64,000 nucleotides of DNA. Source: a virus. The DNA is taken from IMG/VR virus record IMGVR_UViG_3300029822_000001, positions 1 to 64,000 of that record, one strand, 5' to 3'. The notes under the pieces were generated by a model, which had not been told where the DNA came from, did not search any database, and saw only the letters and a list, made by a program, of their open reading frames with translations. A program made the translations under genes and the position numbers. Positions 3,481 through 64,000 of the stretch are shown piece by piece; the first letter of the stretch is position 1; every line of letters starts with the position of its first letter.

Positions 3481-4845
3481 GAAAGTATGCAAGTAAGCAC
3501 GTTCTTTTAAAGACGTGATGAATTGCATTGGCTGTACATCTAGTTAAAAGTAGGGTATACTAAAAAATAGGAGGTGAATAAAATGACGTTAAAGGCTATA
3601 AAAACTAGAATATACCCTAATACTGAACAGCAGTACAAAATAGTTAACACGTTTGGTTGCTGTAGGTTTGTATGGAATCAGTTACTTGATATGCAGATTG
3701 AAAGATATCATAATGGGGGTAAGTTTGTTAATGAGTTTGGTATGAACTACCTGATTGTACAGTTGAAGAAAGAGTATCCCTTTCTTAAGAAAGTAGACTC
3801 AAGAAGTTTATTTCATGTTAGTCGTGACCTAAATAACGCTTTCCAGAAGTTATTTAAGGAACACTCAGGCCATCCTAAGTTTAAATCACGTAAGTTTCCT
3901 AAACAAAGTTATCAATCAAGTTGCATTAAAAATAATATTCGTCAAGTTAGCGAACACAGAATTAAGTTACCTAAGTTAGGTACTATTTACTTTAGGTCGG
4001 GACGTCAGCTTGAGGGTAAGATTAAGAATGTAACTATTAGGTTATCTTCTACTGGAAAGTTCTATGCTGTTGTTTTAATTGATACCGAAGTTAATAGGTT
4101 GGATAGTACTAATCACTCCGTAGGAATTGACATGGGTGTCGCTGATTTAATGATTACTAGTGATGGGGTTAAGTATCCAACCATTAGGTTTGATAAGATT
4201 TTAGCTAATAAGAAGCACTATTGGGAGAAACGGTTAGCTAGAAGACAAGCACAAGCACTTAAAGAGATTGCTTGTGACAAGCATAATAAAGTGATAGAAC
4301 TACGAGAGCTGTCTGACTTCAAGAATTACCTTAAAGCTAAACGTATGGTAGCTAAGTATAGTGAAAAGGTAGCTAATCAAAGAAGTAACTATTTACACAA
4401 CCTAACCAAGCAGTTAGTAGAGCAATATGATGTGATTAAAATAGAAGATTTGAAAACCAAAAATCTTCTTAAGAACCATAAACTTGCTCGGGCAATTTCT
4501 AACCAAGCTTGGCGAGAACTGCGTTCTCAGCTTGAGTACAAATGTGAATGGTACGGTAAACAGTTAGTCACTGTTAATCCTAGAAAAACCAGTCAAATTT
4601 GTAGTACATGTGGGTACGATGATGGTAAGCACACCTTAGATATTAGGCAGTGGACGTGCCCACAGTGTGGCACGCACCATGATAGAGATATTAACGCAGC
4701 AATAAATGTCTTAAAGGCGTAAACGACTAAACTGGGCCGGAACGGCCCTTAGTAAATAGCTGTAACCTCTACTTATTACTATTTAGGCAATAGGCAAGCA
4801 TGCAGTTTTCCTAGAAGCTTCTTACTTTAGTGACGAGTAGTTCAC
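3481..4845 (+). mobile_element. IS200/IS605-family tnpB-only (IS1341-like) element
   Basis: Left-end hairpin CACGTTCTTTTAAAGACGTG 3' of a TTGAC target (3476-3480); tnpB; right-end hairpin preceded by GAAG and ending in TTCAC (4841-4845). Confidence 0.85.
3574..4722 (+). CDS. tnpB: RNA-guided endonuclease TnpB (IS200/IS605 type)
   Basis: HTH N-terminus (RIYPN..Q), RuvC motifs VGIDMG / KIEDL / HDRDINAA, CxxC..CxxC zinc finger. Confidence 0.95.
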   Translation: MNKMTLKAIKTRIYPNTEQQYKIVNTFGCCRFVWNQLLDMQIERYHNGGKFVNEFGMNYLIVQLKKEYPFLKKVDSRSLFHVSRDLNNAFQKLFKEHSGHPKFKSRKFPKQSYQSSCIKNNIRQVSEHRIKLPKLGTIYFRSGRQLEGKIKNVTIRLSSTGKFYAVVLIDTEVNRLDSTNHSVGIDMGVADLMITSDGVKYPTIRFDKILANKKHYWEKRLARRQAQALKEIACDKHNKVIELRELSDFKNYLKAKRMVAKYSEKVANQRSNYLHNLTKQLVEQYDVIKIEDLKTKNLLKNHKLARAISNQAWRELRSQLEYKCEWYGKQLVTVNPRKTSQICSTCGYDDGKHTLDIRQWTCPQCGTHHDRDINAAINVLKA

Positions 4846-5090: not shown

Positions 5091-5790
5091 CAATAAACAT
5101 TGGTCAAGCATGTGAAGATGGGGTAAGCACCCTGCATGTGGCACTTGGTATATAAGTCTTGAATACCTGTGACAAACGATAGTTTTATTAATATTTAGGG
5201 GAGAAAACTCGTTACTTCAGTGACGAGATGAATTCCTTATTATTCTAAATAAATCTCTATTGACAAATATAGGGATTATGGTATACTATAGTTGTTAACG
5301 AAAACCAAGTTAACTAATAAAAGTATATTAACTGGGCCGGAACGGCCCTTAGTAAATAGCTGTAACCTCTACTTATTACTATTTAGGCAATAGGCAAGTA
5401 TGCAGTTTTCCTAGAAGCTTCTTACTTTAGTGACGAGTAGTTCACACATGACTGAATAAGTTGGTTTAGGTAAGCAAAGTACAGTGAAAGCTGGGCCAAT
5501 GATACATATATTATGTTACCTTATGGCGAAAAATAAGCCGTAGTAGCCATGGAGCCGGATAGGCTTTTAGTGCAAACCAGGGATGTTTCAGGGGAGATAA
5601 CCTGACTGTTAGGTACTAACGACATATGAGGTACCGCTAATTGCACAATAGTTATATTAACTCTTCTGTACAAAGACTTAATATACTTGCGGTCGCTGTA
5701 CTATAGACGTATAGTATGTAACTCTTAAGGGTACCAAATTAGAGTATAAACAAGGGTACCCAGCGCTACATATTAGATATAGTATACTAA
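5091..5790 (+). ncRNA. Candidate large structured ncRNA interrupted by an omega-RNA cassette
   Basis: About 440 nt without a long ORF after removing 5189-5445; relatively GC-rich, many hairpins, ends at a terminator. Family not identified. Confidence 0.4.
5189..5445 (+). mobile_element. Non-autonomous IS200/IS605 derivative carrying only a promoter and omega-RNA B
   Basis: TTTAT target (5184-5188); left-end AAAA plus hairpin 19 nt inside; TTGACA(5260)-N16-TATACT; scaffold matches 4731-4845 except 1 nt; ends TTCAC. Confidence 0.9.
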
Positions 5791-7376: not shown

Positions 7377-8081
7377 ATGGTTATGGAAAAAGTCGTCGGT
7401 AAGTCTTTAGAAGAAATTGCAAGAGGGTCCCAAATTCTGGATACCCCTTATAACTCAACAATTGTTTACGAACTAGGTACCTTAATTAGAAATGAAATGT
7501 ACTCAGTACACAATGTATCAATTAGTACTAGCAATTCTAGTGGTACTGTATTAGATAAGGGAGAATCCTCCATTGCCTCATCTATTCAAGTAACTATTGA
7601 ACCTAGCAAGATTCGTACTTTTGTACAAGTTCGGGGAATTACTCAACCAGACTTTGTTGCTATGGTTGGTGATATTGTACATTCAGGGATGCTATTTTCA
7701 ACTGAAAATGTAACAATTGACCGGTACAATGTTTCTTCCTTGTACGATGAAGAGTTAACAATTAGTATTGACTTTGCTTATACCAAGGTAACTGACTTTG
7801 ATGGTGGCAAGGATGTATCTAAGAAGAATAGTGAAGTACTAAAGGGGCTTACAGACAAGGTAAACAATCTGTCTGACTTGGTACAAAAAATGGATACTGG
7901 ATTTGGCACAGAAGTGTCTAGCTTAAAGAAACGGGTTGATGCTTTAGATACCCCTAAGGAAGCACTGGACGTACCAGACGCACCAGCTGCAACAGATACC
8001 AAGACAGATGAACCAGCTGAAGTAGAAGGGGAAACATCTCCAGTAACTGAACCAACAGGGGAGACAAGTAGTAGTAACTGA
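7377..8081 (+). CDS. Hypothetical protein, N-terminal part of a gene split by the IS607-like element
   Basis: Joins in frame to 9520-10012 when 8072-9519 is removed. Confidence 0.7.
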   Translation: MVMEKVVGKSLEEIARGSQILDTPYNSTIVYELGTLIRNEMYSVHNVSISTSNSSGTVLDKGESSIASSIQVTIEPSKIRTFVQVRGITQPDFVAMVGDIVHSGMLFSTENVTIDRYNVSSLYDEELTISIDFAYTKVTDFDGGKDVSKKNSEVLKGLTDKVNNLSDLVQKMDTGFGTEVSSLKKRVDALDTPKEALDVPDAPAATDTKTDEPAEVEGETSPVTEPTGETSSSN

Positions 8082-9519
8082 TTATCTATAAAAGCTTGAC
8101 AGATTTTGTAAAATATTATATAATGTTGTTATGTTATATAGAAGGTTATAAAAATAAACATCGAGAAAATATAAAAACAAATTAGGTGGTGATGAGAATG
8201 TTAACCAGCTATAAAGTTGAAATTAACCCTACAAGTCAGCAAGCGTGGTTAATTGATAGACACATATCAGCTAGTCGTTGGGCATACAACTTGTTTTTAG
8301 ACATTAATAAACAACGCTATGAAGATGGCTATCACTACATGGGTGCATACAAGTTTAGCACGTGGTTTAACCATGACTATTTAGATTTTAACCCAGATGA
8401 TAATTGGATTAAGCAACTGTATGCAAAGTCCACAACGCAAGCTTTCATTGATGCTGACAATGCAATGAAAAGGTTCTTTAAAAAACAGAGTAGATACCCA
8501 CATTTTCGTTCATTTAAGTGCGGACAAGGGTCTTTCTACTTTGTTAAGAACAGCAAGAAGCAGATTATCAAAGTAGAACGTCATCGGATTAAGCTTCCTA
8601 AAATCGGTTGGATACGTTTAAAAGAAAAAGGATATATTCCAACCGATGCTGAACATTTTGTGATTAAACAAGGTCGTGTCAAGAAACATGCAGGTAGATA
8701 CTATCTAACATGCCTAGTAAAGCAAGCTGACATTCAGTTCGCTAAACTTAATGGCGACCCAATTGGAATTGATTTAGGCATTAAAGAATTTGCCATTTTA
8801 AGTAATGGAACTATATTTAGCAACAAAAATAAGAGCAGTCGAGTACGAGGGATGCGAAAACGACTTCGGCGACTGCAAAGAAAGTGGTCTCGTCAGTATC
8901 TTGCATTTAAAGCTAGAAAACAGAAAGAAGGGTCTTCTGCTACTGATTTAAATCTAGCCAAAACCGAGCTGAAAATGCAACGATTGTATCAACGTCTTCA
9001 AAACATACAAGCTGACTATCAGAAGAAGATTATTTCACGGGTGGTGAGAACCAAACCACAGTGGGTAGCTTTGGAAGATTTAAACATCGGTGGTCTGATT
9101 AAGAACAAGAATTTAGCTAAAGCGATTATGCAACAAGGACTTTACACGTTTAGAGAAAAGGTAATAAATAAGTGTCAACAACTTGGGATTCCAGTTCACC
9201 TGGCTAATCGGTTTGAACCCACCTCTAAGCGCTGTCATAATTGTGGAACTAGAAAAGTTAACTTGTCCCTAGCTGATAGAATCTATCATTGTGACGTTTG
9301 TGGTTATACTGAAGACAGAGATATCAATGCGTCTTTAAACATTAGAGATACTGAAAACTTTGAGCTTGCCTACTAAATAGGCTTCAAAGTATGTACCGAT
9401 GGCTAGTCGGGAATTTACGCTTGTGGACTGTTATATCAACTGTACTAGCGAGCTTTTAGCGAGGCAGGACAGGCTGAAACAAGAAAAATCTATAACTTTT
9501 TATAAGTTATCAGTAGCAG
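8072..9519 (+). mobile_element. IS607-family tnpB-only element
   Basis: AT-rich left end, tnpB, right end ...TTATCAGTAGCAG|G, AG at both junctions, imperfectly inverted ends; removal restores a reading frame. Confidence 0.75.
8186..9376 (+). CDS. tnpB: RNA-guided endonuclease TnpB (IS607 type)
   Basis: RuvC motifs IGIDLG / ALEDL / EDRDINAS, CHNC..CDVC zinc finger. Confidence 0.93.
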   Translation: MVMRMLTSYKVEINPTSQQAWLIDRHISASRWAYNLFLDINKQRYEDGYHYMGAYKFSTWFNHDYLDFNPDDNWIKQLYAKSTTQAFIDADNAMKRFFKKQSRYPHFRSFKCGQGSFYFVKNSKKQIIKVERHRIKLPKIGWIRLKEKGYIPTDAEHFVIKQGRVKKHAGRYYLTCLVKQADIQFAKLNGDPIGIDLGIKEFAILSNGTIFSNKNKSSRVRGMRKRLRRLQRKWSRQYLAFKARKQKEGSSATDLNLAKTELKMQRLYQRLQNIQADYQKKIISRVVRTKPQWVALEDLNIGGLIKNKNLAKAIMQQGLYTFREKVINKCQQLGIPVHLANRFEPTSKRCHNCGTRKVNLSLADRIYHCDVCGYTEDRDINASLNIRDTENFELAY

Positions 9520-10091: not shown

Positions 10092-11237
10092 GTGAAGATA
10101 ATGACTTTAAAAGGAATTAAATTACGCATTTACCCTAATCAAGAGCAACAGTTGAAGATTAAATTGAACTTTGGCTATAATCGTTTTGTTTGGAACCAAA
10201 TGTTAGGTATGATGATAAAGCGCTACGAGAATAATCCTAAAGCTAAGTTTCTAAACGTATTTGATTTAAATACTCTTTTACCTACTTTAAAGACTGAGTA
10301 TCCTTGGTTAAAGGATGGAATAGCTCAGTCTTATCAGCAGAGTATCAAGGATTTATCTTTAGCTTATAAAAAGTTCTTTAAGGAGCACGCAGGGTTCCCC
10401 AAGTTTAAGTCTCGGAAGTTTCCCAAGCAAAGCTTTAGGATACCCCAAAAGACTAGATTAGTAGATGACCAGTATATTAAATTTACTAAAATCGGTGTTG
10501 TTAGGTTTAAGTATGGTAGAGTAATTAGAGGAAAGATTAAAAACGCTACAATCAAAAAGTCTTTTACTGGTAAGTATTATGCCGTCTTACTAGTAGATAC
10601 CAATATTAAAAAACTACCTAAAACTAAACAGTCAGTTGGCATCGACATGGGAGTAGCAGATTTAATGATTACTAGTGATGGTATTAAGTATCCAACCATT
10701 CGCTTTGATAAGCTTCTTGCTAAAAATAAGCATTATTGGGAGAAACGGTTAGCTCGTAGAAGACCACAAGCTATGAAAGAAATCGCTTGGGACCATCACA
10801 ATAAAGTAATGGAGCCAAGAGAACTATCTGATTTTAAGAACTATCTTAAAGCCAAGTGTATGGTAGCTAAATATAGCGAAAAGATTGCTAATCAGCGTAG
10901 TAACTATCTTCATAATCTAACCAAGCAGTTAGTCGAGCAATACGATGTGATTAAAATTGAAGATTTGAAAACCAAAAATCTTCTTAAGAATCATAAGCTT
11001 GCTCGTGCAATTGCTAATCAAGCATGGCGAGAAATTAGAAGACAGCTGGAATACAAGTGTACCTGGTATGGGAAACAGTTGGTCACTGTGAACCCAAGGA
11101 AAACCAGTCAAATTTGCAGTAACTGCGGATTTGATGATGGTAAGCACACTTTGGATGTTCGCCAGTGGAAATGTCCTAAATGTGGTATGAACCACGACAG
11201 AGATATCAACGCTGCGAAAAACATCTTAGCTGCTTAA
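10092..11237 (+). CDS. tnpB: RNA-guided endonuclease TnpB (IS200/IS605 type)
   Basis: VGIDMG / KIEDL / HDRDINAA intact; C-terminal half nearly identical to 3574-4722. Confidence 0.95.
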   Translation: MKIMTLKGIKLRIYPNQEQQLKIKLNFGYNRFVWNQMLGMMIKRYENNPKAKFLNVFDLNTLLPTLKTEYPWLKDGIAQSYQQSIKDLSLAYKKFFKEHAGFPKFKSRKFPKQSFRIPQKTRLVDDQYIKFTKIGVVRFKYGRVIRGKIKNATIKKSFTGKYYAVLLVDTNIKKLPKTKQSVGIDMGVADLMITSDGIKYPTIRFDKLLAKNKHYWEKRLARRRPQAMKEIAWDHHNKVMEPRELSDFKNYLKAKCMVAKYSEKIANQRSNYLHNLTKQLVEQYDVIKIEDLKTKNLLKNHKLARAIANQAWREIRRQLEYKCTWYGKQLVTVNPRKTSQICSNCGFDDGKHTLDVRQWKCPKCGMNHDRDINAAKNILAA

Positions 11238-11239
11238 CA

Positions 11240-11386
11240 CAAATGACTAAATTGGGCTGGAACAGCCCTTAGTAAATAGCTGTAACCGCTATCTGACATT
11301 CAATGGATGCTAGACAAGTCAGCGGTGTTCCTAGAAACCTGTGGTTTTAACCATGGTGTAGTTCATTGTAAAATGCTACTTAGAAA
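11240..11386 (+). ncRNA. TnpB omega-RNA D (right end TTCAT 11362-11366; guide TGTAAAATGCTACTTAGAAA)
   Basis: GGGCTGGAACAGCCC hairpin, TAAATAGCTGTAACC, GAAA plus right-end hairpin plus TTCAT. Confidence 0.85.
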
Positions 11387-11453
11387 TTAAACGTGGAGAT
11401 GTTGTAAAATGAACTTAGAAATTAAACGTGGAGACATTGTAAAATGCTACTTA
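11366..11453 (+). repeat. About 36-bp tandem repeat (2.5 copies) spanning the omega-RNA guide and the mazF-like start
   Basis: Units start at 11366, 11402 and 11437. Confidence 0.9.
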
Positions 11454-11765
11454 CCTGGTGAAGGAACCAGTCATGTACAAAGTGGTTACCGTCCCGTAGT
11501 GGTTGTACAAAATAATACTGGAAATAAATTTTCTCCTAATACTATTGTGGTACCTTTAACCTCAGAGAACAAGAAGGACATGCCAACTCATAGTAAATTT
11601 GTTATTCATTATGCAGATAGAGAAGATGTTAATAACATTGCTTTGTGTGAAGCATTAACTACCATCCCAATTAGTTCAATTACCAGTAAGGTAGGACATG
11701 TTAATTATAGCAATATGCATAAAATTGAGCAGGCTATTAGAGTTAGTTTGGGGTTGAATGAATAA
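11409..11765 (+). CDS. PemK/MazF-family endoribonuclease toxin
   Basis: IKRGDIV, QSGYRPVVVVQNN.GN..SP..IVVPLTS motif. Confidence 0.9.
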   Translation: MNLEIKRGDIVKCYLPGEGTSHVQSGYRPVVVVQNNTGNKFSPNTIVVPLTSENKKDMPTHSKFVIHYADREDVNNIALCEALTTIPISSITSKVGHVNYSNMHKIEQAIRVSLGLNE

Positions 11766-13581: not shown

Positions 13582-13786
13582 TTGACAAATAAATAATATA
13601 TGATATACTATAATTGTTAGCGAAAACCAAGCTAATAAATAAAAAATTATCTAGGTTCGGAACGAACCGTGGTAAATAGCTGTAACCTCTGCATATAGTG
13701 CTAGACACTATTGTGTAAGTATGCAGTGTTCCCAGAAGCTCGGTCATTCATGACCGAGTAGTTCACATCATGAAATAAAAATTTCA
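13582..13786 (+). ncRNA. Stand-alone omega-RNA cassette E (promoter, scaffold, guide ATCATGAAATAAAAATTTCA)
   Basis: TTGACA(13582)-N16-TATACT, GAAAACCAA leader hairpin, scaffold, right end TTCAC at 13762-13766; no tnpB and no left-end hairpin seen. Confidence 0.85.
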
Positions 13787-18253: not shown

Positions 18254-18400
18254 GAAGTAAATATCTTATGTGATTTTTGATGGTTTTGATTGACAAAGTA
18301 GTTCACTAGTGGTACACTGTTTCATGTAGGAGGAAGTAACCTACCAGGTAAACTTGATGATGATTAAGGGGAGTTGGTCACTCCCCCTATACATAATAAT

Positions 18401-18566
18401 GTGGACATTACCCAAGGTTGTTAGGAAAGTCCTTAAAAAAGCGAGGTAAATATACTGAGACCTCTATTAATGTACTATTGTTAACAAGTCTTGTACTTCC
18501 CTTGAAACTCTTGCAAATTTAATAGGGTACGACCCTACTTGTTTGACAAGGGTACAACATCCACCA
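18401..18566 (+). ncRNA. Candidate small RNA with paired ends, terminating in CCA
   Basis: GTGGA/TCCAC and TACCC/GGGTA end-to-end pairing; downstream of a TTGACA promoter near 18291; no ORF. Confidence 0.35.
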
Positions 18567-18759
18567 TGATAGAGATATTAATGCAGCTAAAAATATTCTG
18601 GATACTTCCTTGACAATAGAAAATTAGTGTGGTATACTTATACTGTACCAGAGATTGGTAGTAGTACCAAGTGGTACCTATAAAAATACTAACTAAGAAA
18701 AAGGTTGACAAATAAGTAAAATGTGGTATACTTATTAAGTACTAGAAAGTACCATGTAT

Positions 18760-18911
18760 TGCCTCCAGTAAAATAATCTATTGTGAATATAAACAGGCTT
18801 GTACGATAGGTAAAAAGTGGCGGACGTATATCCTCGCGTGAAGAGATTGTGTGCCTGTTCAAGACTTAGGCAATCCGCAAAGCTACCTCACTTAATTGGT
18901 TACATGGTAGC
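18760..18911 (+). ncRNA. Unidentified pseudoknotted RNA, copy 1
   Basis: Shares TAAACAGG, AAAAAGTGGC, CCTGTTCAAGAC.TAGG and ACTTA.T.GGTTAC blocks plus covarying stems with 20074-20221. Confidence 0.65.
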
Positions 18912-18913
18912 AA

Positions 18914-19030
18914 GAGAAAGTAGCACAAAGGTAGTGCTGTAGGCCGTTGGCCTGTGTAGGTAGTATCTAGTTAGTACATTAGTTGTTAACAGTATAGGTA
19001 CTCATGAGGGTTCGACCCCCTCCTTTCTCT
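18914..19030 (+). tRNA. tRNA-like RNA (GTT/Asn anticodon position) with a roughly 50-nt variable arm
   Basis: Acceptor GAGAAAG/CTTTCTC, D stem GCAC/GTGC, T arm GAGGG-TTCGACC-CCCTC, non-canonical loop CCGTTGG. Confidence 0.6.
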
Positions 19031-19104: not shown

Positions 19105-19638
19105 GTGGTAAAAAAAATGTCTGATGTTCTTAAATCTAATGTTGAATATAATTATGGTAATTCCATCGAAGCAATGAATCAGATTTTAGCCGATGCGCAT
19201 GTACTTTGGGTTAAAACTCATCAAGCACATTGGTATATGATTAATTCTCGTAATGTGATGTCTGATTTCTTGATTTTACATGATTGGTTAGATAAGCCAC
19301 TTGATTTTCTTATTGATTTAATTGATGATGTTGCCGAAAGAATTGTTATGCTAAATGGTAAACCAGTAGCTACTTTAAAAAACTTTCTTGATTCAACTAC
19401 TCTACAAGAAGAGGATATCGACTACTTTGAGTATAGTTCAGATGAATTATTAAGTAGAACGGTTGCAGACTTCAAAGCATTTAGAGATGAATTATCCAAT
19501 GCCATTAAAATTATGGATAGTGAGGGAAACGTTTCGGATAGTAATAAGCTGCAAGATGATTTAAGTGAGACAAATAAATACATCTGGTTTATGCAGGCAA
19601 CTCTGGGAAGAACAACATTAAACAATAACTTTAACTAG
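19105..19638 (+). CDS. dps: Dps/ferritin-like DNA-protection protein
   Basis: KTHQAHWY, F..LH, D.VAERIV.L.G.P, K.IWF. Confidence 0.9.
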   Translation: MVKKMSDVLKSNVEYNYGNSIEAMNQILADAHVLWVKTHQAHWYMINSRNVMSDFLILHDWLDKPLDFLIDLIDDVAERIVMLNGKPVATLKNFLDSTTLQEEDIDYFEYSSDELLSRTVADFKAFRDELSNAIKIMDSEGNVSDSNKLQDDLSETNKYIWFMQATLGRTTLNNNFN

Positions 19639-19657
19639 TGTACACATATAAAATGTG

Positions 19658-19854
19658 TTGACAAGTTAGTACATTAGTGTTACTATTAAATTGTAATGAA
19701 AACCAAGCTGTCAATAAGTGATACTAAGTTGGCAACATCATGGGCCGGAACGGCCCTTAGTAAATAGCTGTAACCTATGCACGGAGTGCTAGACACTATA
19801 GTGTAAGTAAGTAGCGTTCCTATAAACTCGTTACTTTAGTGACGAGTGTTTCAC
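19658..19854 (+). ncRNA. Stand-alone omega-RNA cassette F abutting tRNA-Gly
   Basis: TTGACA(19658)-N17-TACTAT, GAAAACCAAG leader, scaffold, TTCAC at 19850-19854. Confidence 0.85.
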
Positions 19855-19925
19855 GCGGGTGTGGTGTAGTGGTAACATAGTTGTCTTCCAAACAACTGAC
19901 GCGAGTTCAATTCTCGTTACCCGCT
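19855..19925 (+). tRNA. tRNA-Gly(TCC)
   Basis: Canonical cloverleaf, loop CTTCCAA, T loop TTCAATT. Confidence 0.92.
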
Positions 19926-19999
19926 TGTAGCATAAATACAATAAGGCAAAACGTCGGTGTACTGTTCGCCATTAATGTCCTTTTATGGTACACCATTAT

Positions 20000-20071
20000 A
20001 CTCCTGTAGCTCATCGGTAGAGCGGCCTCCTTATAAGAGGCGGGTAGAATGGTCAGCACATTCCAGGAGTA
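20000..20071 (+). tRNA. tRNA-Ile(TAT)
   Basis: ACTCCTG/CAGGAGT acceptor, GCCTC-CTTATAA-GAGGC anticodon arm, atypical T loop GTCAGCA. Confidence 0.75.
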
Positions 20072-20073
20072 TT

Positions 20074-20221
20074 TCCTCCCATAAATAGGTAGTACTTAGA
20101 TTAAACAGGGTATAAGTACTATAAAAAGTGGCTACCGGGCGTGCTCACGTTAGAAGTATGTGTCCCTGTTCAAGACCTAGGAATGTAGCTATAAGCCGAA
20201 CTTATTGGGTTACTAGGCTTA
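20074..20221 (+). ncRNA. Unidentified pseudoknotted RNA, copy 2
   Basis: Same conserved blocks and stem topology as 18760-18911. Confidence 0.65.
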
Positions 20222-20225
20222 ATTT

Positions 20226-20311
20226 GGAAAGTTAACCATAATTGGTGTTGGAGCGGGTTGCTAACTCGTTGTACCCTCTGGGTATTGCAGGTTCAAGTCC
20301 TGTACTTTCCG
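20226..20311 (+). tRNA. tRNA-Ser(GCT)
   Basis: GGAAAGT/ACTTTCC acceptor, loop TTGCTAA, long variable arm, TTCAAGT T loop. Confidence 0.9.
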
Positions 20312-20422
20312 TATACATAGTACCTAGCTAAGAATAGACAATTTTGTCTATTCTTTTTATTTTGTAAAAAAGTGTTGACTAAGGAGTAAAAAGTGGTAGT
20401 ATTATAAGTATAAGAAAAGGAA

Positions 20423-63851: not shown

Positions 63852-64000
63852 CCTTTCTATGGCTTAATCACGTGAACTACTCGGTCATGAAGGACCAAGC
63901 TTCTGGGAACACTGCTTACTTACACAGTAGTGTCTAGCACTCCATGCAGAGGTTACAGCTATTTACCACGGCTCGTTCCGAACCTAGTTAGTCAATTATT
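63852..64000 (-). ncRNA. Omega-RNA G / IS605-type right end (element continues beyond the window)
   Basis: Scaffold closely similar to cassette E; TTCAC at 63876-63872; guide GTGATTAAGCCATAGAAAGG. Confidence 0.85.

What the first reader, a model, noticed from the sequence alone, without database searches (positions are those of the whole stretch)
19658..19925. Omega-RNA whose guide is exactly the 5' end of tRNA-Gly
Seen: TTCAC (19850-19854) abuts nucleotide 1 of tRNA-Gly(TCC), so the guide is GCGGGTGTGGTGTAGTGGTA and the cassette promoter would drive the downstream tRNAs. The right-end tetranucleotide (TAAA) no longer fits TCAC, suggesting immobilisation. Inference: RNase P would cut exactly at the scaffold/guide junction, so tRNA maturation and TnpB loading compete. 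The product is either a guide-less scaffold (a possible TnpB sponge) or a guide against tRNA-Gly genes. The upstream dps gene may have entered with the cassette.
Basis: partly seen in the sequence, partly recalled or inferred. Interest (0 to 1): 0.72.

Follow-up and report, generated by a model that had tools for sequence, protein, structure and literature searches.

The report
Orphan TnpB guide-RNA scaffold fused to tRNA-Gly
A gene-less, no-longer-mobile leftover of a small TnpB transposon in a Lactobacillus phage keeps its promoter and guide-RNA scaffold and ends exactly at the first base of a tRNA-Gly gene, so it most likely now serves as promoter and leader of the phage's tRNA operon.

Summary
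A covariance model built only from scaffolds that follow tnpB genes finds cassette F at 19742-19854 (102.8 bits, full length). tRNA-Gly(UCC) starts at 19855. A TTGACA-17-TACTAT promoter lies at 19658-19686, and no terminator-like site was found before 20330.

The same junction is present in phage 3-521. F is a tnpB-less omegaRNA cassette of an ISDra2-like IS200/IS605 family, a kind described by Meers et al. 2023. It is immobile: it has no left end, its right-end DNA-guide tetranucleotide is TAAA against GAAG or GAAA in the other 27 of 28 copies, and the phage record has no tnpA.

The "guide" evolves as a tRNA. I found no target with the inferred TTTA motif in the phage itself, in 50 host-genus tRNA-Gly loci, or in 6 viral contigs. 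Phage 3-521 keeps an intact F but has no TnpB of this family.

dps did not arrive with F; tRNA-Gly-to-dps synteny is older.

Best reading (0.55): a relic that acts as promoter and 5' leader, cut off by RNase P. The RNase P step is inferred. Homing (0.2) and decoy (0.08) readings stay open.

Unchecked notes from this scan report similar scaffold-tRNA junctions in several other phages. Interest is moderate.

The parts
19117..19638 (+). dps (ferritin-like DNA-protection protein), the resident upstream gene. Its 3' end is an insertion hot spot.
   Evidence: Pfam PF00210, E 7e-18. 97.3% identical to the 3-521 dps. Relative L185 has a full tnpB element starting right after ...AACTTTAA.
19658..19686 (+). 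Cassette promoter, TTGACA-17-TACTAT with TG extension.
   Evidence: Consensus scan, 10 of 12. Both hexamers are identical in 3-521 while 5 of 17 spacer positions differ. tnpB-less copies B, D and G carry a promoter of the same architecture.
19692..19712 (+). Weakened 5' hairpin with the conserved GAAAACCAA loop, a hallmark of the tnpB-less cassettes.
   Evidence: Loop at 19698-19707. The helix covaries in 13 cassettes. In window F, 2 of 6 pairs are broken and 3 are wobble pairs.
19742..19854 (+). omegaRNA scaffold, the right end of the IS, ending in TEM TTCAC.
   Evidence: R1 match of 102.8 bits over model positions 1-112. 34-pair consensus structure. Compensatory changes seen.
19823..19826 (+). 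Right-end DNA-guide tetranucleotide TAAA, mutated from GAAG.
   Evidence: The only copy of 28 with T at position 1. Across the family position 4 covaries with the last TEM base.
19827..19846 (+). Right-end subterminal hairpin CTCGTTACTTTAGTGACGAG.
   Evidence: Sequence. The same hairpin is found at left and right ends of family members.
19855..19925 (+). tRNA-Gly(UCC). Its first ~20 nt occupy the guide position.
   Evidence: There is no second match in the phage genome at up to 3 mismatches in 16 nt.
19999..20072 (+). tRNA-Ile(tat), the next gene on the inferred transcript.
20225..20312 (+). tRNA-Ser(gct), the last gene on the inferred transcript.
20330..20355 (+). Terminator-like hairpin followed by a T run, the first such site after the promoter.
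3574..4722 (+). Intact TnpB of the same family, a possible partner in trans, followed by scaffold copy A (4734-4845).
   Evidence: Pfam. ISDra2 TnpB 8h1j at E 7e-62, with D186/E291/D372 aligned to positions 191/278/361. R1 at 110.9 bits.
10092..11237 (+). Second intact TnpB of the family, followed by scaffold copy C (11254-11366).

Best explanation
Cassette F is the immobilised remnant of a tnpB-less, promoter-bearing omegaRNA mini-element (PATE-like) of an ISDra2-type IS200/IS605 family. The family has colonised this Levilactobacillus myophage.

The right end of F lies directly against nucleotide 1 of the phage tRNA-Gly(UCC). By position, therefore, the guide is the tRNA's 5' end.

The cassette promoter is read as transcribing scaffold, tRNA-Gly, tRNA-Ile and tRNA-Ser as one precursor. 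RNase P then cuts at +1 of tRNA-Gly and removes the scaffold as a 5' leader without a guide.

What is retained is mainly a promoter and leader for the tRNA operon. The tRNA guide is a by-product of where the right end sits, not a purpose-built anti-tRNA guide.

Shown: scaffold identity, the junction, the promoter motif, loss of mobility features, and the absence of a TAM-flanked target.

Inferred: co-transcription, the RNase P cut, and the promoter's use.
For: - Scaffold membership and its exact end: with a model built without F.
- tRNA start.
- Promoter present and no terminator-like site before 20330. The hexamers are conserved against a diverged spacer in 3-521.
- The junction TTCAC|GCGGGT is conserved in 3-521.
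- Immobility: no left-end hairpin between the dps stop and the -35. TAAA versus GAAG or GAAA in the other 27 of 28 copies. 0 matches to the Y1 transposase PF01797 in the 122,967-bp record.
- The guide region evolves as a tRNA. It differs at 3 of 20 positions between the two phages, and in 3-521 its first 42 nt equal the host-genus tRNA-Gly(UCC).
- No TAM-flanked target. TAM TTTA(N) was inferred from left-end flanks. It is absent directly 5' of the tRNA in 0 of 50 Levilactobacillus loci and 0 of 6 viral contigs holding the exact 18-mer. The phage's own genome has no second site.
- The complete 3-521 genome has F as its only R1 scaffold. Its only TnpB is 44% identical and belongs to another family. 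That family is not followed by an R1 scaffold in Iacchus, and Lpa804, which also carries it, has no R1 match at all.
- tnpB-less elements that encode omegaRNAs are described in Meers et al., PMC10055086 (passages read).
Against: - The scaffold is not visibly decaying. F scores as high as tnpB-linked copies. The 3-521 copy has 0 of 50 deviations at columns conserved at 93% or more, although no donor copy exists in that genome. This could mean selection on the RNA itself.
- The window phage has three intact same-family TnpBs, so loading in trans is possible.
- The TAM is inferred from flanks, not assayed.
- Promoter use and RNase P cleavage are not measured.
- A DNA contig in run X4 joins 19659 to 19902 with at most 104 letters between. 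This hints at an F-less allele that could be a homing target.
Confidence: 0.55

Rival explanations
1. F is an active RNA-guided homing or marker-exclusion element, an RNA-guided analogue of T4 SegB. Some precursors are bound by TnpB before the tRNA folds. The RNP then cuts F-less alleles (TAM followed by tRNA-Gly) in co-infecting relatives. Repair copies F and its neighbours into the cut genome.
For: - Three intact same-family TnpBs with the D/E/D motif residues are present.
- The scaffold is intact.
- The locus is polymorphic. There is a full tnpB element at the dps stop in L185 and a contig lacking the scaffold in X4.
- The region is mosaic. The central stem has been swapped, and tRNA-Gly is 70-77% identical against 97% for dps.
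- tRNA 5' ends are conserved, which makes them good homing targets.
- T4 SegB is a precedent (cited in PMC13565253, passages read).
- Unchecked notes from this scan report similar junctions in other phages.
Against: - No sequence with TAM plus protospacer was found.
- RNase P should remove the guide.
- 3-521 keeps F without a same-family TnpB.
- The guide is not conserved between the two phages.
Confidence: 0.2
2. The RNase P product, a scaffold without a guide, is the functional molecule. It acts as a decoy that titrates the phage's (or the host's) TnpB and damps its nuclease activity.
For: - The junction sits exactly at +1, so the scaffold 3' end would be precise.
- The scaffold is conserved in two phages.
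- R1-type scaffolds occur in 10 of 39 host-genus genomes, so host elements of this family exist in some species.
Against: - There is no evidence that a guide-less omegaRNA inhibits TnpB.
- Window F has the weakest 5' hairpin and the most deviations at conserved columns: 2 of 50, and 7 of 67.
- The junction is a single evolutionary event within this family.
Confidence: 0.08
3. F is a neutral fossil. Neither its promoter nor its RNA is used, and the tRNAs are expressed by read-through from dps or from other promoters.
For: - No terminator-like site lies between dps and F.
- An RNA-library contig spans the dps 3' part into F.
- Window F shows some degeneration.
Against: - The promoter hexamers are 12 of 12 conserved while the spacer differs at 5 of 17 positions.
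- The scaffold core is 94.7% identical between the phages and scores like functional copies.
Confidence: 0.12
4. F is an anti-host weapon. TnpB with the F guide cuts the host tRNA-Gly genes.
For: The 3-521 guide equals the host-genus tRNA-Gly(UCC) over 42 of 42 nt. The window guide has 2 to 3 mismatches to the host genes.
Against: - 0 of 50 host loci have TTTA(N) directly 5' of the gene.
- The window guide has mismatches at positions 7, 9 and 12.
- 3-521 lacks the cognate TnpB.
Confidence: 0.03

Closest known systems
PATE-like non-autonomous IS200/IS605 elements that encode omegaRNAs (Geobacillus stearothermophilus; Meers et al. 2023, PMC10055086, passages read)
   Same: There is no protein gene. 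The right end carries an omegaRNA scaffold that must use TnpB in trans. It belongs to a family with tnpB-bearing copies in the same genome.
   Different: F has lost the left end and carries a mismatched right-end DNA guide, so it is not mobilisable. It has its own sigma70-type promoter and a compact 5' hairpin. It sits in a virulent-type phage and is fused to a tRNA.
ISDra2 TnpB-omegaRNA (PDB 8H1J, 8BF8/8EXA)
   Same: The phage's TnpB-1 matches at E 7e-62, with residues aligned to the catalytic triad. The scaffold ends at the transposon right end and the guide is the flanking DNA.
   Different: The TAM inferred here is TTTA(N) or TTTTG, not TTGAT (the ISDra2 value is recalled). The F scaffold is separated from any tnpB gene.
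Phage T4 SegB, a homing endonuclease that cuts tRNA genes (cited in PMC13565253; the original paper PMC2330249 was not read)
   Same: It is a selfish nuclease system lodged in a phage tRNA cluster whose target is a tRNA gene.
   Different: SegB recognises DNA through protein contacts. For F no cleavage or target is shown.
Engineered polycistronic tRNA-guide RNA arrays processed by RNase P and RNase Z (recalled; only a search listing seen)
   Same: A guide-RNA scaffold directly joined to a tRNA, so that tRNA processing defines the RNA end.
   Different: In the engineered arrays the tRNA flanks a complete guide. Here the cut would remove the guide.
TldR, phage-encoded nuclease-dead TnpB transcription factors (search listing only)
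   Same: A TnpB-family guide RNA fixed in a phage genome outside a mobile element.
   Different: The TnpBs here keep the D/E/D motif residues. No promoter target with a TAM was found.

Membership tests
TnpB omegaRNA scaffold (ISDra2-like IS200/IS605 right end) | Sequence and structure match to scaffolds that directly follow tnpB genes | tested here: met
   R1 was built from 14 tnpB-linked copies without F. F scores 102.8 bits, E 2.4e-22, over model positions 1-112 of 112.
TnpB omegaRNA scaffold (ISDra2-like IS200/IS605 right end) | Ends at the transposon end motif, followed by copy-specific guide sequence | tested here: met
   All 28 distinct copies end in TCAC or TCAT and diverge immediately afterwards.
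TnpB omegaRNA scaffold (ISDra2-like IS200/IS605 right end) | Overlaps or follows a tnpB gene | tested here: not met
   dps lies upstream and there is no tnpB. Three intact family TnpBs lie elsewhere in the genome.
TnpB omegaRNA scaffold (ISDra2-like IS200/IS605 right end) | Expressed and bound by TnpB; directs cleavage next to a TAM | not testable with these tools
   Only contigs of RNA libraries were available. One spans 19402-19776 at about 93% identity. No TAM-flanked target was found.
PATE-like non-autonomous IS200/IS605 element | Left end with a subterminal hairpin next to a TAM | tested here: not met
   Only 19 nt lie between the dps stop and the -35, with no ...GATGAAT hairpin. Copies B and G do have one.
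PATE-like non-autonomous IS200/IS605 element | Right-end hairpin with a DNA-guide tetranucleotide matching the TEM | tested here: not met
   F has TAAA/TCAC. 26 of 28 copies keep GAAG/TCAC or GAAA/TCAT. That this pairing is needed by TnpA is taken from the IS608 rule (recalled; also mentioned in Meers passages).
PATE-like non-autonomous IS200/IS605 element | No protein-coding gene between the ends | tested here: met
   No ORF of 60 aa or more on the + strand in 19639-19854.
PATE-like non-autonomous IS200/IS605 element | A TnpA (Y1 transposase) available in trans | tested here: not met
   PF01797 has 0 matches in the 122,967-bp record, which is estimated 87% complete. Only a tnpA-like fragment lies upstream of copy D. 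Host copies were not examined.
Promoter plus 5' leader of a tRNA operon | Sigma70-type promoter, no terminator before the tRNAs, terminator after them | tested here: met
   Hexamers are conserved in 3-521.
Promoter plus 5' leader of a tRNA operon | Mapped transcription start and an RNase P cut at +1 | not testable with these tools
   No raw-read RNA data were available.
TldR-type domesticated guide system | Nuclease-dead TnpB partner and a guide matching a TAM-flanked host promoter | tested here: not met
   The GIDMG, IEDL and DRDINA motifs are present in the 3 family TnpBs. No TAM lies next to the host tRNA-Gly genes.

The most novel reading that the evidence does not exclude
The junction is not an accident. 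TnpB mini-elements in phages preferentially settle with their right end on the first base of a tRNA, because conserved tRNA 5' ends are ideal homing targets between diverged phages.

RNase P then works as a built-in switch. In the resident genome it strips the guide and yields an inert, possibly TnpB-titrating, scaffold. Only transcripts captured co-transcriptionally by TnpB become homing guides.

F would be one conserved example of a natural omegaRNA module coupled to tRNA processing.
Probability: 0.15. Interest if true: 0.7.

Novelty: new member of a known kind. Interest (0 to 1): 0.4.

Why it matters
It documents how a selfish RNA-guided nuclease element decays inside a lytic-type phage into a fixed promoter-plus-leader for tRNA genes. 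It also gives a clean natural case in which tRNA maturation and guide-RNA formation compete for the same phosphodiester bond.

If the recurrence noted elsewhere in this scan is real, phage tRNA clusters would be a preferred niche of TnpB elements. That would be worth a systematic survey and a simple RNA-end mapping experiment.

The family also offers covariation evidence for two things. One is the right-end DNA-guide/TEM rule. The other is a compact 5' hairpin shared by gene-less omegaRNA genes.

Tried and rejected
- Bacterial origin of the junction. The pattern for right end plus tRNA-Gly start gave 11 matches in 401 sampled Lactobacillaceae genomes. None of the 10 fetched had the scaffold core upstream, and the 11th was not fetched.
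- Exact protospacer in IMG/VR. Six contigs hold it, all unrelated tRNA-Gly genes without a scaffold or TTTA.
- F-less allele by pattern. The 18-mer between dps and the -35 gave 5 chance matches in IMG/VR.
- Dps relatives. The viral scan gave one locus (65% identical, contig length equal to phage SAC12B). The metagenome scan gave one useful contig, L185, which ends inside its scaffold, so its right-end flank is unknown.
- Read laying. All runs are kept as contigs, so no RNA ends, strand or level can be read. RNA-library cover of the scaffold-tRNA junction was nil, which says nothing. The X4 joint 19659>19902 has unknown letters between its sides.
- MFE fold of the scaffold plus tRNA (z -2.3). 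It mispairs the tRNA and was not used.
- Pseudoknot between the GAAAACCAA loop and GTGTTCC. By eye the complementarity is imperfect, so this was dropped.
- The idea that the 3-521 TnpB (UCC3521_0029 family) is F's partner. Its Harbinvirus homologues (71% identical) are not followed by an R1 scaffold in Iacchus, and Lpa804 has no R1 match at all, so this is unlikely.
- The ~150-nt motif at 18760-18911 and 20074-20221 as another omegaRNA. It occurs only twice in the genome and does not follow the two other-family tnpB genes whose 3' flanks I read. No Rfam match at E<1 covers either ~150-nt copy. It was left open.
- Literature. Searches listed no paper that describes a natural omegaRNA-tRNA junction. 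Supplements are closed and could hold such cases (for example element tables of Meers et al.).

Full report
**Context.** The window is the first 64 kb of a 122,967-bp IMG/VR virus record. It is a Herelleviridae-type Lactobacillus myophage. Its closest public relative is Levilactobacillus brevis phage 3-521 (Watanabevirus): 63% of window 1-21000 matches at 92% identity.

The genome holds eight copies of one RNA scaffold.
- Four copies follow tnpB genes: A at 4734-4845, C at 11254-11366, and two beyond the window.
- Four copies have no tnpB but carry their own TTGACA/TATACT-type promoter: B ending at 5445, D ending at 13766, F ending at 19854, and G at 63872-63984 on the minus strand.

The tnpB products carry the Pfam TnpB domains. 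TnpB-1 matches ISDra2 TnpB structures at E 7e-62, with D186/E291/D372 aligned to positions 191/278/361. That these positions form the catalytic triad is recalled. Three family TnpBs are intact with the GIDMG, IEDL and DRDINA motifs.

**The observation.**
- ARAGORN and Rfam both place tRNA-Gly(tcc) at 19855-19925.
- I built covariance model R1 from 14 scaffolds that directly follow tnpB genes in this phage, Lb338-1, CL1 and IMG/VR contigs, leaving F out. R1 matches F at 19742-19854 over all 112 model positions, at 102.8 bits and E 2.4e-22. The scaffold therefore ends one base before the tRNA.
- In 28 distinct copies the sequence after TCAC or TCAT is unrelated from copy to copy. This is what a guide position looks like.
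- The promoter-like site TTGACA-17-TACTAT (TG extended) is at 19658-19686. The first terminator-like site downstream is at 20330-20355, after tRNA-Ile and tRNA-Ser.

**What the cassette is.** Left ends of the family carry the same subterminal hairpin as right ends, followed by GATGAAT. B and G are complete miniature elements: left-end hairpin, promoter, 5' hairpin, scaffold, right end. D has a tnpA-like fragment upstream (compare). F has neither.

Thirteen tnpB-less copies from this phage, 3-521 and seven IMG/VR loci share a 5' hairpin with the loop GAAAACCAA. The stem of this hairpin changes by compensatory substitutions. In all, 13 of 33 predicted pairs show double changes. The same loop closes a 9-bp stem inside the tnpB reading frame, at the IEDL codons.

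Elements of this kind are in print. Meers et al. state that PATEs "often encode omegaRNAs" that must be used in trans by TnpB (PMC10055086, passages).

**Immobility.** The four bases 5' of the right-end hairpin are GAAG with TEM TCAC in 22 copies and GAAA with TCAT in 4 copies. This covariation is not explained by the RNA helices. F has TAAA with TCAC, and it is the only copy with T at the first position. In addition F has no left end, and the record has no Y1 transposase match.

**TAM.** I inferred the TAM from three kinds of comparison:
- the same element in different flanks (L022 versus L024; L028, L029 and L032);
- the empty site of B in 3-521;
- 30 bacterial left ends.

The motif 5' of the left end is TTTA(N) in the subfamily with the CTCG hairpin and TTTTG in the CACG subfamily. 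Metagenome contig L185 (Dps 98% identical) agrees. There a full tnpB element begins right after ...AACTTTAA in the last codons of dps. This TAM is an inference from flanks, not an assay.

**Is the tRNA guide a designed guide?**
- The phage genome has no second match to the first 16 nt at up to 3 mismatches.
- All 39 Levilactobacillus species genomes have tRNA-Gly genes that start with a sequence 2 or 3 mismatches from the window guide. Of the 50 loci I read, none has TTTA(N) directly 5' of the gene.
- Six IMG/VR contigs hold the exact 18-mer as a tRNA-Gly start. None has the motif or a scaffold.
- In 3-521 the junction TTCAC|GCGGGT is the same, but the guide differs at 3 of 20 positions. Its first 42 nt equal the host-genus tRNA-Gly(UCC), and the 3' part equals that phage's other tRNA-Gly. 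The region therefore behaves as a recombining tRNA gene.
- The complete 3-521 genome has F as its single R1 match. Its only TnpB is 44% identical. That TnpB's homologues in Harbinvirus phages are not followed by an R1 scaffold in Iacchus, and Lpa804 has no R1 match at all. F is thus kept there without a cognate phage TnpB.
- R1 scaffolds do occur in 10 of 39 host-genus genomes.
- The junction was not found in 401 sampled Lactobacillaceae genomes. There were 11 pattern matches, and the 10 that were fetched lack the scaffold.

**dps.**
- In Tybeckvirus phages dps lies between sbcD and the exonuclease gene, with no cassette.
- In Harbinvirus the order is tRNA-Gly, two ORFs, dps.
- In 3-521 the order is tRNA-Gly(1), dps, F, tRNA-Gly(2).

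dps is therefore resident and older than F. Its 3' end is simply a landing site.

**State of F.** Between the two phages:

| Segment | Identity |
|---|---|
| dps | 97.3% |
| Promoter region (hexamers 12 of 12, spacer 12 of 17) | 82.8% |
| F-specific 5' part | 82.5% |
| Scaffold core | 94.7% |
| Central stem (swapped for that of another copy) | 48.5% |
| tRNA-Gly | 70-77% |

Window F has the most deviations at conserved columns of all 28 copies: 2 of 50 at 93% or more, and 7 of 67 at 80% or more. The 3-521 F has 0 and 1.

**Expression.** One contig from an oligo-dT RNA library spans 19402-19776 at about 93% identity. This is a weak hint of read-through from dps in a relative, and DNA carry-over cannot be excluded. 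A DNA contig in another run joins 19659 to 19902 with at most 104 letters between. That is too short for a scaffold plus the tRNA 5' half, so an F-less allele probably exists, but I could not read it.

**Verdict.**
- Most likely (0.55): F is a fixed relic that supplies the promoter and a structured leader for tRNA-Gly/Ile/Ser, and RNase P severs it exactly at the scaffold/guide junction. The cleavage is inferred from what RNase P does at +1 of any pre-tRNA.
- A residual homing role against F-less alleles (0.2) cannot be excluded.
- A decoy role for the guide-less scaffold (0.08) cannot be excluded.
- A neutral fossil is given 0.12.
- Host targeting is unlikely (0.03).

Unchecked notes from this scan report orphan scaffolds abutting tRNAs in several other phage genomes. 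I did not test those. Within this scaffold family the abutment is a single orthologous locus.

Noticed in passing
window 4446-4473, 10961-10988; cassettes at 5294-5315, 13616-13637, 19692-19712: All tnpB-less cassettes carry a 5' hairpin with the loop GAAAACCAA, and its stem covaries. The same loop closes a perfect 9-bp stem inside the tnpB ORF at the RuvC-II IEDLKTKN codons, about 265 nt upstream of the scaffold. The gene-less omegaRNA genes look like streamlined versions that keep this hairpin and drop the coding sequence in between.
   Followed up: partly
window 11367-11453: The guide of scaffold C (first 16 nt) recurs exactly at 11438-11453 inside the adjacent PemK/MazF-like ORF (11409-11765), preceded by GGAGACAT. 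A 38-nt tandem duplication rebuilds the gene start.
   Followed up: partly
window 18760-18911 and 20074-20221: Two diverged copies of a ~150-nt structured motif each lie directly 5' of a tRNA or tRNA-like gene (18914-19030; tRNA-Ser at 20225). The first, together with its tRNA-like partner, is 90-93% identical in the Harbinvirus phages Semele and Lpa804, where in Semele it lies between tRNA-Met and tRNA-Trp. No Rfam match at E<1 covers either ~150-nt copy.
   Followed up: partly
L001 3305-3375 (phage 3-521): tRNA-Gly(2) of 3-521 is a chimera. Nucleotides 1-42 are identical to the Levilactobacillus tRNA-Gly(UCC). The rest is identical to the phage's tRNA-Gly(1), which leaves two G-U pairs in the acceptor stem.
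   Followed up: partly
window 8063-9519: TnpB-2, of another family with a RAGATH-18 RNA at 9420-9485, is a clean insertion relative to 3-521, between ...CAGGGGA and (T)GGTACCAGTG.
   Followed up: partly
window 18280-18600: Remnant of a TnpB of the UCC3521_0029 family; only ...IHHDRDINAAKNIL remains. The intact gene is conserved at 71% identity beside the tRNA cluster in Harbinvirus phages, without an R1 scaffold after it where checked (Iacchus), so it may be a long-resident phage TnpB.
   Followed up: partly
28 scaffold copies (window, L001-L037): The right-end tetranucleotide and the TEM covary: GAAG/TCAC in 22 copies and GAAA/TCAT in 4. This is family-level support for the IS608-type DNA-guide rule.
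   Followed up: yes
L026 1457-2311 (IMG/VR 139.8-kb phage): Another large phage carries two tnpB-less cassettes in tandem in a tRNA region, one of them 168 nt upstream of tRNA-Ser. The same contig holds three further copies.
   Followed up: no
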